Source: the human T2T-CHM13v2.0 reference genome, Homo sapiens. Taken from it: a stretch of DNA of 64,000 bases. Numbering within the stretch: position 1 is the stretch's first letter; the number at the start of each line of letters is the position of its first letter. The position numbers were made by a program, and so were the translations under genes. This document shows positions 47,013 to 51,319 of the stretch, one piece after another. The notes beneath the pieces were generated by a model. The model saw only the letters and a program-made list of their open reading frames with translations. It was not told the origin of the DNA and made no database searches. The stretch lies in NCBI RefSeq assembly GCF_009914755.1, contig NC_060940.1, one strand, 5' to 3'.

Positions 47013-48542
47013 GTGAGTGGCAAATGCAGCAAAACAAGATGGTGGCCTCCAAGCAATGAGAGATCGAGAGACACTGCCGCATGCAAGTATCGGGATCTCC
47101 TTGACCTTGGCTGGGACTTCACGGGAGGTTTCCGGAGCAGCCCCATGGACTCCCCAGCTTATGATTTAGAACCAGTTGAGCATTTCAGTTAGCAAATTGT
47201 ATTTAATGCTGTGTAACCTCAGGGCTCTTAATGTAAGATTTGTAGATGCAGAATTCAGAGCTTTAAGAAAGCTTGCCCAACCTCTGGGAAACCAAGAGGG
47301 ATTTTCAGTCTCTGTAGAGTATTACCTGCCTGTGCATAGGGAAGATGCATAGGAAATGTCTTAAGGGTTCAAGTGTCTATTGTGTCCCTTAGGCGGCTCT
47401 ACCTTAGTTAAGTGCTAGCTCTTGTCAGTCACGATTGTGTGATATTTGTCGTAAATGTTCTTTATTATTATTATTATTGCTGTTATTATTATTTAGGTCA
47501 TTTAATTACTCTTAATCTGACCTTGTCTCCCTGTGTAAATATCCCCCTTCTTCCTTGCCATGTGTCTCTGTGCAGATTTGTAGGCAGTTATCAAATCAAT
47601 CCCTTCTCCGCACCCCACCCCATGCCAATCACCACCTAACCAAACTACATACATATATATTTAGCTCTTTTAATCTTTTTTCTCATAAGGTTCTAATTTT
47701 ACATTTTCTGGGGTATTTTAGATTTGGCAGAATGGCCTTCGTCTGTGAAGAGTAGAACTTAATTATCAAAAGCTGAGCCGGAGTGAGCTATCCATCACTG
47801 GGTGACATATCCTTGCCTGTGTTCATTTGAAAAACATTTTTTTTGTAGCTCTTGGAAGAAGAAAAAAAACAAAGCTGCCAGAAGGAAAAAAGAAAAAAAG
47901 GAAGGAAAAGAGAAAAAAGGAAGAAAAAGAAAAAGAAGAAAAAACTTCATTCTGACATTCATCATCCTGCAACACAACCACATAACATATCAAAATATCA
48001 CAACGTGAGGTATCAAGTGTTGAGAAGGCTCATTTGATTTCTCTCTTGCTTTTCTTTTCTTTTTCTTCTCTTTTTTATTTTGTTGAAAACTGAATCTAGC
48101 ATGTGAAAGTTAGTCCTGTAAAATGCCTCCTACAGTAAACATCATCTTTTTGACAAGGTTTGCATTATAATTAAGGCCTGTCTGAGTAGCTACGCAACTG
48201 CGTGTTGCACTGTTTTCTTTAAGAGACGGGGTTTTTTAACAGCCAGATAAATGCTCAGCGTGGCCCAGCCCAGTGGGACAGCGACACCCTGTGGCCGTGT
48301 CTGCTCATGGACCCAGGGTGGGGCCACACAAGGCTTGGCTGGAGGAAGGCCTGTTCAGAAGGGTTCCCAGGGTGAATTCTGGTATTATATTGCCATGTGA
48401 ATGCTGACAAGATTCGCCAAGAGGGGGCCAGTTTTGAGGCAGAGGAGCCTGTCCTGTGTGATTTAAATGAGATACAGAAGACAAAAGTACCTGGCAGAGG
48501 GCCCCACCACAGCAGGCTCTTACCCTGTGCCATACCCCAAAT

Positions 48543-48624
48543 TGCCAGATGCAGAATGAGAGGCCAACTCTTTTCTGACAGGTCCGATTCAATGACACAC
48601 TAACTCCAAAAGGCTGCCCCTGGA
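48543..48624 (+). repeat. Duplicated block A, copy 1
   Basis: 71/82 identical to 49238-49318 by manual alignment. Confidence 0.9.
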
Positions 48625-48839
48625 ATCTTACCAGAAAGCAACCCTAAACCCCATGTCAGGAACTTCTATCAGCGATCAACAAGACTGGTGACAAATCCAC
48701 TCAGTCATCCAGAGGCTTCCAAAAGCCTTTGAATAATGAATTCAAATATTTCATCCTTGAGAGGAACGATGGTTTTTGTCAGTTGATTTGTATTCCAGCC
48801 ATTTATTTAAATAACCAACCGATAAAATACACGTTTTCA

Positions 48840-48913
48840 TAGTAAATAAAATCTGCAGATCCTCACCCCATAATTGGTTAGTCCATCAGCACTTTTATCC
48901 ATTATATATGGAC
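48840..48913 (+). repeat. Duplicated block B, copy 1
   Basis: 66/74 identical to 50188-50261, ungapped. Confidence 0.9.
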
Positions 48914-49237
48914 TTAAATGCAACAAGATGAGGTGGCGTGCTCCCTCCTCTGCAGGAGGACGGCAAATGTTTACAACGGTGGTTGCAGTTTCAGCTAATA
49001 TTTTCCGGAAACATATATTTGTCATCTCTCTTCTCTAAGTTATTCCAGGTTTCTTCAAAACACATGAATTGAGATCGCTTTGTCCAAATTTATTTATTTT
49101 TTCTCTTTTAGTTTGTTGTACTTACCGGGCATAACCAAAAAAGACATTCCCTCTGGCATGCCAAGGCCTGGCGGGTCCTCAACGGCCAATGGCTATTTCC
49201 ACTCTTTGTTGATTGAGTCCTGGCGCCGTACCCTGAA

Positions 49238-49318
49238 TGCCAGATGCAGAATGAGAGGTCAACTCTTCTCTGGTGGGTTCAAGTCAATGACAAACTAACT
49301 CCAAAAGACTGCCCTGGA
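49238..49318 (+). repeat. Duplicated block A, copy 2
   Basis: TGCCAGATGCAGAATGAGAGG...TCAATGACA.ACTAACTCCAAAAG.CTGCCC. Confidence 0.9.
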
Positions 49319-49462
49319 GTTAACAAACACTCAGAGAAAATACGCAATGAAAATCATCAATTTACCAGGTGGAAAAACAGCCGCCTCCAGAGGCTAAGAC
49401 AGGCCAAGCCAGGCCAAGCCAGGCCAGGATTACTTCCTATGTCTACCCTGTTGAGTGCCTTT

Positions 49463-49791
49463 ATTTATTTATTTATTTATTTATTTTATTTTATTTTATT
49501 TTTTTTTTGAGACAAATTCTCACTCTGTCACCCAGGCTGGAATGCAGTGGCACAGTCTTGGCTCACCACAACCTCCGCCTCCCAGGTTCAAGCGATTCTC
49601 ATGCCTCAGCCTCCCAAGTAGCTGGAACTACAGGCATAAGCCACCACACCCGACTAATCTTTGTATTTTTTAGTAGAGACAAGGTTTTGCCATGTTGGCC
49701 AGGCTGATCTCGAACTCCTGGTCTCAAGTGATCTGCCTGCCTCGGCCTCTCAAAGCGCTGGGATTACAGGCGTGAGCCACTGCACCCGGCC
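49463..49791 (-). mobile_element. AluS (Sx-like)
   Basis: Full dimer with (TTTA)n tail; TSD TGTTGAGTG(C/T)CTTT. Confidence 0.92.
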
Positions 49792-49904
49792 TGTTGAGTG
49801 TCTTTTACACAGAACACACCAGTTGGTGTTTAAGGGACATCTCTCAAATCCTAAGGCATAAGAAGAGAAAAAAGAGGCCAATGAGAAAAAAATGACGATT
49901 ATGG

Positions 49905-50110
49905 TCAAAATACCTAACATTTATTGAGCATTTACTTTCTGCCAGCTACTGTTTAGGCACTTTAAGTTCATTAACTCATTTAATTTTCACAAGAACTCTA
50001 CAAGGTGGCACTGCTATCATCACTGATGTAAAGATCAGAAAACTGAGACACGAAAGGATTAATTTTTTAGCTGCAGGTCACCGGCTTACTCGGGAGCAGT
50101 GGTGGGTTCC
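49905..50110 (-). mobile_element. MIR
   Basis: AACATTTATTGAGCATTTACT...AACTCATTTAATTTTCACAA...AGAAAACTGAGACAC. Confidence 0.75.
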
Positions 50111-50187
50111 TATTCTGAGAGGACTCCAGTGACTAACTGCAAGGTGGCGATGCTGCAGATAATCAACACATGAAATAAACATTTTAG

Positions 50188-50261
50188 TAGTAAATAAAGC
50201 CTGCAGATCCTCATCCCGTAATTTGTTAGTCCATCACCACTTTTGTCCATTACATATGGAC
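50188..50261 (+). repeat. Duplicated block B, copy 2
   Basis: TAGTAAATAAA..CTGCAGATCCTCA...GTTAGTCCATCA.CACTTTT.TCCATTA.ATATGGAC. Confidence 0.9.
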
Positions 50262-51319
50262 ACAAACGTAGCAATCTGGAGATCAAATCCATTTTAAAGG
50301 TGGGGAGACTGGGAGCCAGGGTGTGGATGTTGGGTGTCCACCGTCACACCAGGTAGCAATGAAGTACCAGGGCCCAGCTTGGCTAATTTTCATGATACTG
50401 CACTTGATGTTGCGTGTCAGCCACCCAGGTGCCTGCCAGATGGCATCCACGTTGTGGTACCTTCACCTTGACAGCAAATATGTAAATCTCTGCTCTCAGC
50501 CTTGCAGAATCACCATCATTAGAGCCTCAGGAGGGTTTCAAGTCCATTCTTCTTTCCTTTTCTCTGGATCTCATTGTCACCATCAAAGAAAAATAATTAC
50601 CATGTTAGAGAACAACTCTTTGTTACATGATACAAAAATAGGGCCTCAGGGCACAGTGAGCAAGTGAAAGATGAGAGTGCTCAGTTTTGAGATAAAGCAA
50701 ATGGGAGGATGTCCACTTGGGACTGATTCAAGAAGGGCCTGGAGATGGTGGCCCTGATTGCACGGATATCCTAAATTCCCTTCTCGCCCCATTAATTCAC
50801 CTCCACACAATGTCTGACCCCAGATGCATCTCTTCCAATCCCACAGGGCACATAGTGTTTGTCCTACTGTCTTCCCTTCTCACAGTCTCTCTCCTCCTTC
50901 AGCTCTCTCCACCATGATGGCATTAGTCTACACTACAATTGCTGCCCACCAGGTCTTTCCAAAGCAATTCAGACCTTTCCATCCCCTGCTCCAAAGCTTT
51001 CAATAGTCCCTCACTGCTTATAGAACAAAGTCCTAGGTCCTAAACCTAAGCCCAACTTTTCACTCTTTTTCAACCCCCTCCAAGTCCCCTATGCTCCAGC
51101 CAAAGCTAACACAAATTGTCCTGCCTTTGAGCTTTGCTCATGCTTTTCCATCTACCTGCAGGGTTGTTGCACTGCACAACTCCAGGAGGCTCATCTCCAT
51201 CAGAGGCAATGTGACTAGCACCCAGTGGGGTTGGTCAGTATACAACCTGCACAACTATACCTGGCCACCTGGCCATCTGGATCTTATATCCCACCACACC
51301 CATGTCCCTCCATCTAAAG

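What the first reader, a model, noticed from the sequence alone, without database searches (positions are those of the whole stretch)
48525..50280. Ancient tandem duplication with block-wise conservation: candidate 'twin' enhancer
Seen: two unique blocks occur twice, collinear and in the same orientation. Block A (48543-48624 vs 49238-49318) is 71/82 identical; block B (48840-48913 vs 50188-50261) is 66/74 identical without gaps. The spacers are almost unalignable except for short collinear remnants (TCCAGAGGCT at 48708/49386; TGAGAGGA at 48758/50116). Only copy 2's spacer carries an AluS and a MIR. Positions shared by both copies include E-box CAGATG, TCAATGACA, forkhead GTAAATAAA, TAATT and GTCCATCA (TGATGGAC, PBX-HOX-like). 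Established: MIRs were active mainly before the eutherian radiation, and neutral DNA of that age is far more diverged than 11-13%. Inference: the duplication may predate the MIR, and the blocks have been kept by purifying selection (or local gene conversion), forming a duplicated two-module regulatory unit with diverged spacing (~215 vs ~870 bp).
Basis: partly seen in the sequence, partly recalled or inferred. Interest (0 to 1): 0.8.

Follow-up and report, generated by a model that had tools for sequence, protein, structure and literature searches.

The report
Old twin noncoding blocks near IRX6
Two short noncoding blocks between IRX5 and IRX6 were copied side by side very long ago and have changed far more slowly than the DNA around them, which fits a duplicated regulatory element but has not been tested as one.

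Summary
Block A (48529-48624 vs 49225-49318; 81 of 94 aligned bases match) and block B (48811-48926 vs 50159-50274; 95 of 116 match) occur twice, collinear, on the same strand.

Whole-genome BLAST and core-pattern scans of T2T-CHM13 find only these two copies, so this is not a dispersed repeat at that sensitivity.

Copy 2 is interrupted by an Alu with target-site duplications, a MIR (49897-~50155), and a second MIR fragment (50284-50388). Copy 1 has none of these. With the insertions removed the spacers are 186 vs 235 nt, so the "diverged spacing" comes from the insertions. The spacers align no better than shuffles, apart from one collinear 10-mer.

This MIR has K≈0.32 to a rough consensus. 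Neutral copies older than it should differ by K≥0.63. The blocks differ by K=0.15 and 0.21.

Coding, Rfam RNA, a transposon family and an IrxA paralogue are all unsupported.

Best reading (about 0.5): a pre-MIR tandem duplication of ~0.7 kb, with the blocks kept by constraint as paired cis-regulatory modules 68 kb upstream of IRX6. Gene conversion is not excluded. No cross-species or chromatin data were available here. Modest interest; a new member of a known kind.

The parts
48529..48624 (.). Block A, copy 1
   Evidence: 84% to 49225-49318 over 96 columns. 13 mismatches in 94 aligned bases plus 2 gap columns, K=0.15. The longest shared run is 21 nt.
48625..48810 (.). Spacer 1 (186 nt). It carries the 10-mer TCCAGAGGCT at 48708-48717.
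   Evidence: Global and local alignment to the insertion-free spacer 2 is no better than shuffles: 444 of 500 and 481 of 500 shuffles score at least as high. The 10-mer sits at collinear offsets of 83 vs 67 nt, matched by 4 of 1000 shuffles.
48811..48926 (.).
   Evidence: 82% ungapped to 50159-50274. 21 mismatches in 116, K=0.21; the core is 66/74 identical.
48927..49224 (.). Tail 1, the sequence between copy 1 and copy 2. It is probably the last part of duplication unit 1.
   Evidence: A weak collinear alignment to the sequence after B2 with MIR#2 removed: 127 identities in 231 columns, and 10 of 300 shuffles score at least as high. No MIR match.
49225..49318 (.). Block A, copy 2
   Evidence: The 35-nt core pattern with up to 3 mismatches hits only the two copies in the whole genome.
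49319..49446 (.). Spacer 2, the part left of the Alu. It carries TCCAGAGGCT at 49386-49395.
49447..49806 (-). Alu insertion (body about 49463-49789) with its two target-site duplications, 49447-49462 and 49790-49806
   Evidence: Two Metazoa_SRP-like matches on the minus strand at 49507-49654 and 49674-49790 (E 1e-13 and 6e-10). The near-identical 16-17 nt flanking repeats are printed. The hub's annotation lists 49454-49797 as masked.
49807..49896 (.). Spacer 2, the part between the Alu and MIR#1
   Evidence: Used in the spacer tests. No similarity to spacer 1.
49897..50155 (+). MIR-type SINE insertion (MIR#1). It is in copy 2 only and abuts the 5' edge of B2.
   Evidence: 40 scored matches on many chromosomes at 70-89% identity. 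A profile built from 24 other copies aligns 49897-50131, envelope to 50155, E=4e-29, and finds nothing in copy 1. 74% identity to the rough consensus, K=0.32. The name MIR is from my recall of the family; no Dfam was available.
50159..50274 (.).
   Evidence: The 35-nt core pattern with up to 3 mismatches hits only the two copies genome-wide.
50284..50388 (+). Second, 5'-truncated MIR-type fragment (MIR#2), 10 nt after B2 and absent from copy 1
   Evidence: The profile matches model positions 147-259 at 14.4 bits, E=5e-6 in 1.1 kb searched. This is a weak match.
50389..50602 (.). Putative tail 2, the neutral-looking counterpart of tail 1. The end of the duplication is not defined.
   Evidence: 55% identity, collinear, p about 0.03 by shuffles. 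Suggestive only.

Best explanation
A stretch of roughly 0.7 kb (block A, spacer, block B, tail) was duplicated in tandem in the IRX5-IRX6 gene desert before the MIR SINEs landed in copy 2. On the usual dating of MIR activity (recalled) that is before the eutherian radiation. Since then the spacers and tails have decayed to, or nearly to, chance similarity, and copy 2 has taken up two MIRs and an Alu.

In both copies, two blocks of about 95 and 116 nt (and perhaps one 10-mer) have changed at only a quarter to a third of the neutral rate. I read this as purifying selection on both copies of a two-module cis-regulatory element. That would make them a duplication-born redundant ('shadow') enhancer pair acting on IRX6, about 68 kb away, and/or IRX5.

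Shown here: the duplication, its uniqueness in the genome, the copy-specific insertions, and the rate contrast between blocks and surroundings. Inferred: selection rather than gene conversion, enhancer function, and the target gene.
For: - **Two copies only.** Genome-wide BLAST at E up to 10 and 35-nt core patterns with up to 3 mismatches (reversed-pattern controls gave 0 hits) find only these two. The same BLAST tool recovers MIR copies at 70-89% identity, so it can see old repeats.
- **Copy-specific insertions.** Copy 1 has no MIR and no Alu. The insertions are in copy 2 alone.
- **Rate contrast.** This MIR has K=0.32 to an independent rough consensus, so neutral paralogues that predate it should differ by K of at least 0.63 (about 43% mismatches). 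Block A has K=0.15 and block B K=0.21.
- **Spacers at chance.** The tails show only a 55% collinear trace, which is what neutral decay of that age predicts.
- **Same ancestral spacing.** With the insertions removed the spacers are 186 vs 235 nt, and a collinear 10-mer survives. The spacers are therefore homologous but decayed, not replaced.
- **Insertions avoid the blocks.** All three insertions in copy 2 lie outside the blocks, and two abut B2.
- **Not coding.** Every frame has a stop in one copy, or every change is non-synonymous. No Rfam family matches the blocks.
- **Setting.** The site lies between the IRX5 and IRX6 homeobox hits. Passages of PMC8212766 describe this cluster as holding many ultraconserved non-coding elements, some with validated enhancer activity.
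- **Precedent.** Duplication-born redundant enhancers are described as common in PMC13345019, abstract and passages.
- **No GC-enrichment.** Block B has GC 0.33-0.34 and block A 0.49-0.50, against 0.39-0.43 in the flanks. There is no clear GC-biased conversion signature.
Against: - No cross-species alignment, conservation score, chromatin mark or reporter result could be consulted. Constraint rests on a single-genome rate argument.
- The neutral yardstick is one MIR copy against a crude 24-copy consensus, and the model includes some flanking sequence.
- Mismatches within the blocks are spread evenly, not clustered between motif-sized islands. Longest-run and close-pair statistics were reached by 1360 and 1908 of 5000 permutations for A, and by 4367 and 3677 of 5000 for B. 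That fits uniform slow decay or an old conversion tract as well as site-specific constraint.
- B2 fills nearly the whole interval between the two MIR fragments. A conversion tract bounded by non-homology would also produce that.
- RefSeq's functional elements, per the hub's note, list an enhancer only at 30830-31419 and none here.
- Neither block core occurs in the sequence supplements of PMC3261376, including 1,307 VISTA human elements of 2011. Lines there are wrapped at 60 nt, so a motif could be split across a line end.
- No third copy was found in 200 kb sampled upstream of IRX4 or elsewhere in the window.
Confidence: 0.5

Rival explanations
1. The same old tandem duplication, but the blocks stay alike because of patchy gene conversion between the copies, with no function of their own.
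For: The block lengths (about 95 and 116 nt) are the size of mammalian conversion tracts (recalled). Mismatches are evenly spread within the blocks. The two blocks have similar divergence, K 0.15 and 0.21. B2 is bounded on both sides by MIR insertions that would stop a tract.
Against: Conversion needs flanking homology, and the spacers are at chance similarity. Two separate tracts of about the same age would be required. Block A's edges are not marked by any insertion. The blocks are not GC-enriched. The blocks are 14-18% diverged, so any conversion would itself be old.
Confidence: 0.2
2. The blocks are exons, or other transcribed parts, of an unannotated duplicated non-coding RNA, most plausibly on the minus strand.
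For: Read on the minus strand, block A is flanked in both copies by an acceptor-like ...CCAG|G and a donor-like GG|GTA... (sequence; my reading, not scored). The minus strand of block A gives a consensus fold with z=-2.2 against column shuffles: 31 pairs, 1 compensatory change, 7 one-sided changes. PMC8212766 names lincRNAs in the IRX5-MMP2 interval.
Against: The hub's RefSeq table has no gene in the window. No Rfam match. The fold z-score is marginal across 4 tests, and the other three are between -0.4 and -1.3. No matching splice signals are conserved around block B. With only two sequences, covariation cannot be judged. No transcript data were available.
Confidence: 0.1
3. Both copies descend from an ancient low-copy mobile element or exapted repeat family whose other members are too diverged to find. 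The blocks would be its conserved ends.
For: Two conserved ends with an unalignable middle resembles non-autonomous elements. No Dfam was available, so very old families cannot be excluded.
Against: Only two copies exist in 3.1 Gb, and they are adjacent and in the same orientation. The search tool does find 70%-identical MIRs. No inverted repeat joins the start of A to the end of B among the 13 inverted pairs listed. No target-site duplications are seen at the unit edges.
Confidence: 0.05
4. A young, neutral duplication whose 14-18% block divergence is simply its age, with the spacers replaced by later insertions and deletions.
For: The block divergence alone would fit a neutral pair of middling age.
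Against: The spacers would then also be about 83% identical, and they are at chance. Copy 1's spacer matches nothing else in the genome. Two MIR fragments lie in copy 2 only, although this family is old: K=0.32 here and 0.14-0.45 in 24 other copies.
Confidence: 0.03

Closest known systems
Duplication-born redundant ('shadow') enhancers (PMC13345019, abstract and passages read)
   Same: Two nearby non-coding elements in one regulatory domain share body homology, while flank homology is lost or weak. [quoted passage not shown]
   Different: Neither copy here has been shown to be an enhancer. The pair looks older than most detectable cases, because it predates MIR insertions. It also keeps a two-block layout with the same order and near-equal ancestral spacing.
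Duplicated conserved non-coding elements, dCNEs (PMC2781166, passages read)
   Same: Non-coding sequence kept in more than one copy near developmental transcription-factor genes. The Irx clusters are classic CNE-rich loci.
   Different: dCNEs lie beside paralogous genes and date to whole-genome duplications. This pair is a local tandem twin 0.7-1.35 kb apart. No counterpart was found genome-wide or in 200 kb sampled upstream of IRX4. It is also absent from the CNE and VISTA sequence files of PMC3261376.
Conserved enhancers and ultraconserved elements of the IRXB cluster (PMC8212766, passages read)
   Same: The same gene desert. The elements there are described as conserved, and some as validated enhancers governing the IRX genes.
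   Different: Membership could not be checked. The paper's Table S2 of UCNEs is in a PDF that could not be read. The blocks are about 100 nt long and 82-86% alike between copies, which is well short of what ultraconservation implies.
Ancient exapted repeat families (for example LF-SINE, AmnSINE1 and low-copy 'UCON/Eulor'-type families; recalled, not consulted)
   Same: Conserved non-coding blocks present more than once in the genome.
   Different: Those families are dispersed. Here there are exactly two adjacent copies.

Membership tests
Dispersed repeat / transposable element family | Many copies scattered over the genome | tested here: not met
   BLAST of copy 1, A2 and B2 at E up to 10 returns only self and the twin. 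Core patterns with up to 3 mismatches give 2 hits each and 0 in the reversed controls. A profile search of the window plus 200 kb of chr5 finds no third copy, all other hits having E above 1. The tool warns that its counts are lower bounds. Dfam was not available.
Dispersed repeat / transposable element family | Terminal inverted repeats or target-site duplications at the unit edges | tested here: not met
   None of the 13 inverted pairs in 47500-51500 joins the start of A to the end of B. No flanking direct repeats are seen in the sequence.
Local tandem duplication | Collinear homologous segments, same strand, adjacent | tested here: met
   The order is A1-B1-A2-B2, all on the + strand, within 1.75 kb. 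A collinear 10-mer survives in the spacers and there is weak collinear tail homology.
Conserved non-coding element under purifying selection | Substitution rate clearly below neutral | tested here: met
   Within one genome only. Block K is 0.15 and 0.21, against at least 0.63 expected from the MIR yardstick. The spacers are at chance. Gene conversion could mimic this.
Conserved non-coding element under purifying selection | Orthologous conservation across species | not testable with these tools
   No other vertebrate genome or conservation track is held. The search tool states that the genome 'has no relatives here'.
Enhancer / shadow-enhancer pair | Open or acetylated chromatin, or reporter activity with overlapping patterns for both copies | not testable with these tools
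   No chromatin or reporter data were available. The hub's RefSeq functional-element list has nothing at this site. The block cores are absent from the 1,307 VISTA sequences of 2011.
dCNE (paralogous CNE from whole-genome duplication) | A copy beside the paralogous gene cluster (IRX4/IRX2 on chr5) | tested here: not met
   Genome-wide BLAST is negative. Profile nhmmer over 20 tiles of 10 kb, covering half of C5:1.79-2.18 Mb, is negative. The rest of the interval could not be fetched.
Protein-coding exon | A frame open in both copies, with mostly synonymous change | tested here: not met
   Block A has a stop in one or both copies in each of the six frames. Block B has one frame open in both copies, but all 8 core differences change the residue.
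Known structured RNA (Rfam) | A match to a covariance model | tested here: not met
   At E up to 1 over 48000-50800, the only matches are Alu-derived ones (SRP, mir-1268, mir-3135) at 49507-49790.

The most novel reading that the evidence does not exclude
Both copies have been kept as an obligate pair since before the eutherian radiation. The pair would be a two-module 'twin' element with fixed A-to-B order and spacing. It would be one of at least two such unique local twins in this 64-kb stretch; the other is 23174-23223 / 26966-27019, which carries a Pbx-Meis-type site. On that reading the IRX5-IRX6 desert grew partly by local duplication of regulatory modules that selection then held in two copies. 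This would give a natural test case for enhancer redundancy versus dosage.
Probability: 0.2. Interest if true: 0.55.

Novelty: new member of a known kind. Interest (0 to 1): 0.35.

Why it matters
If both copies prove to be conserved and active, this is a compact, datable example of how redundant enhancers arise by local duplication and persist for about 100 million years or more. It lies next to a developmental gene cluster whose copy-number changes cause disease: PMC8212766 links IRXB duplications to cone dystrophy. Deleting one copy, the other, or both would directly test redundancy against additivity. If instead the copies cluster by species, it becomes an example of long-lived micro-scale gene conversion in non-coding DNA. 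Either way it is a single locus of a kind already described in bulk, so the interest is modest.

Tried and rejected
- **Coding exons.** Six-frame translation of both copies rejects this.
- **Known RNA family.** Rfam at E up to 1 gives only Alu-derived hits.
- **Conserved RNA fold.** Two-sequence consensus folds give z=-0.9 (A+), -2.2 (A-), -0.4 (B+) and -1.3 (B-). This is too weak with two sequences, so I kept it only as a minor rival.
- **Dispersed repeat.** Three BLAST searches and two pattern scans of the whole genome were negative.
- **MIR remnant in copy 1.** None was found.
- **Spacer homology.** None beyond one 10-mer.
- **Head versus tail homology.** 48220-48520 against 48927-49216 shows none; 104 of 300 shuffles score at least as high.
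- **Motif-level clustering of mismatches.** Not significant.
- **IrxA paralogue.** Only 200 kb (alternate 10-kb tiles of C5:1.79-2.18 Mb) could be fetched, and it was negative.
- **Literature.**
  - Searches found no paper describing this pair.
  - Table S2 (UCNE list) of PMC8212766 sits in an unreadable PDF and may bear on whether the blocks are listed UCNEs.
  - The sequence supplements of PMC3261376 hold neither core motif on either strand.
  - A coordinate look-up there returned nothing, probably because of the header format.
- **Not tested.** Alu subfamily, and transcription-factor motif identities.
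Full report
**What is there**

The window is T2T-CHM13 chr16:61,008,001-61,072,000. Homeobox matches place IRX5 at C16:60,730,752 and IRX6 at C16:61,125,844. 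The finding therefore lies about 326 kb beyond IRX5 and about 68 kb upstream of IRX6, in the gene desert between them.

The repeat finder reports two direct families in 47.5-51.5 kb: 48536-48619 vs 49231-49314 (85%) and 48811-48926 vs 50159-50274 (82%, ungapped). BLAST extends the first to 48529-48624 vs 49225-49318, at 84% over 96 columns. The order is A1-B1-A2-B2, all on one strand. A1 vs A2 beats 300 of 300 shuffles.

**Not a dispersed repeat**

Whole-genome BLAST with copy 1, A2 and B2 (the last two at E up to 10) returns only the query and its twin. A 35-nt core pattern from each block, allowing 3 mismatches, hits only the two copies, with 0 hits for the reversed control. The same BLAST route recovers 40 MIR copies at 70-89% identity and thousands of candidates for another repeat in the window, so it is sensitive to old families. 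The tool does warn that its counts are lower bounds, and Dfam was not available. A two-sequence profile of each block finds no third copy in the 64-kb window.

**Anatomy of copy 2**

- An Alu lies on the minus strand, shown by Metazoa_SRP-like matches at 49507-49654 and 49674-49790. It is bracketed by 16-17 nt target-site duplications at 49447-49462 and 49790-49806.
- The stretch 49890-50160 belongs to a dispersed family. A profile built from 24 other copies, with this one masked out, aligns 49897-50131, envelope to 50155, at E=4e-29. I call it MIR from recall of the family.
- The same profile gives a weaker match at 50284-50388 (model positions 147-259, E=5e-6 in 1.1 kb). This is a second, truncated MIR-type fragment.
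- B2 (50159-50274) is therefore bracketed tightly by two SINE fragments.
- Copy 1, its tail and its head show no MIR match.

**Spacers and tails**

With the Alu, one target-site copy and MIR#1 removed, spacer 2 is 235 nt against 186 nt for spacer 1.

The two spacers align no better than dinucleotide shuffles. For the global alignment 444 of 500 shuffles score at least as high, and for the local alignment 481 of 500 (a slightly different cut gave 426 and 289 of 500).

The one exception is TCCAGAGGCT. It is present only twice in the window, 83 and 67 nt after block A. Only 4 of 1000 shuffles give a shared 10-mer at such similar offsets. So the spacers are probably homologous but decayed.

The sequence after B1 (48927-49216) and the sequence after B2 with MIR#2 removed show a long collinear alignment of 127 identities in 231 columns. 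10 of 300 shuffles score as high. This is suggestive of neutral-level residual homology and of a duplication unit of about 0.7 kb. The head before A1 shows nothing, with 104 of 300 shuffles at least as high.

**Age and rate**

The insertions are in copy 2 alone. Either the duplication predates them, or copy 1 lost two MIRs cleanly while keeping B1, which is unlikely.

MIR#1 is 74% identical over 244 aligned bases to a rough consensus built without it, giving K=0.32. The 24 other copies range from K=0.14 to 0.45. Two neutral paralogues older than this insertion should therefore differ by K of at least 0.63, about 43% mismatches. That matches the state of the spacers and tails.

Block A differs by K=0.15 (13 of 94) and block B by K=0.21 (21 of 116). 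That is a quarter to a third of the neutral expectation. The yardstick is crude: it rests on one copy and a 24-copy consensus, and the model includes some flank. The contrast with the chance-level spacers does not depend on it.

**What the blocks are not**

- **Coding.** No frame in block A is open in both copies. The one frame open in both copies of block B has all 8 core differences changing the residue.
- **Known RNA.** No Rfam family matches them.
- **Structured RNA.** Two-sequence consensus folds are unremarkable, except for the minus strand of A (z=-2.2, 1 compensatory and 7 one-sided changes). That is marginal over four tests.
- **Terminal inverted repeats.** No inverted repeat links the unit ends.
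- **IrxA counterpart.** No counterpart was found in 200 kb sampled as alternate 10-kb tiles upstream of IRX4, the paralogous position in the IrxA cluster. The remaining tiles could not be fetched.

**Selection or conversion?**

This cannot be settled from one genome.

For constraint:
- Two separate blocks plus a 10-mer are retained.
- All three insertions lie outside the blocks.
- The spacers offer no homology that could seed conversion.
- There is no GC enrichment (block B 0.33-0.34).

For conversion, or at least not against it:
- Mismatches are evenly spread within the blocks.
- The two blocks have similar divergence.
- The similarity in B2 fills nearly the whole interval between the MIRs.

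I put constraint on a paired cis-regulatory element at about 0.5, conversion without function at about 0.2, an unannotated transcript at about 0.1, and the other rivals lower. Block A has splice-like edges on the minus strand in both copies, but that is my reading and was not scored.

**Against what is known**

PMC2781166 (passages) states that most CNEs are unique in the human genome and that the duplicated ones (dCNEs) lie beside paralogous genes. This pair is local instead.

[quoted passage not shown] A duplication-born pair of regulatory elements is therefore a known kind. 10.1101/703314 (abstract only) argues that many shadow pairs arise otherwise.

PMC8212766 (passages) describes the IRXB cluster as rich in ultraconserved elements with enhancer activity. 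Its UCNE table is in a PDF that I could not read.

The block cores are absent, on either strand, from the sequence supplements of PMC3261376, which include 1,307 VISTA human elements. Lines there are wrapped at 60 nt, so a split motif could be missed. My four literature searches turned up no description of this pair.

**Verdict**

The 'diverged spacing' and one of the two remnants are not. The words 'enhancer' and 'purifying selection' remain untested inference. I classify this as a new member of a known kind, of modest interest.

Noticed in passing
window 23174-23223 and 26966-27019: A second unique local twin: 85% identity over 54 columns, same strand, 3.8 kb apart. Whole-genome BLAST finds only these two places. 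The shared text includes TGATTGACAG, which PMC3261376 quotes as a Pbx-Meis motif.
   Followed up: partly
window 21753-21891 and 24875-25013: A pair that looks collinear with the twin above (71% over 140 nt). It is an ordinary dispersed repeat, with 4775 first-look candidates genome-wide and copies at 87-91% identity.
   Followed up: yes
window 50284-50388: A truncated MIR-type fragment lies directly 3' of B2, so B2 sits in a gap of about 128 nt between two SINE fragments. Whether this reflects insertions tolerated only outside a constrained block, or simply sets the limits of detectable homology, is open.
   Followed up: partly
window, at least 13 places (e.g. 39165-39440, 60666-60875, 57732-57946): The MIR profile finds many MIR-type copies across the window: 21 other places at E up to 0.01, 13 of them at E up to 1e-8. 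NCBI's masking list of stretches of 100 nt or more misses most of them, including the one in copy 2.
   Followed up: no
window 19366-19451 and 37909-37995: An inverted low-copy pair (83% over 87 nt). Both arms lie in stretches that the hub lists as masked repeats, so it is probably a shared transposon fragment.
   Followed up: no
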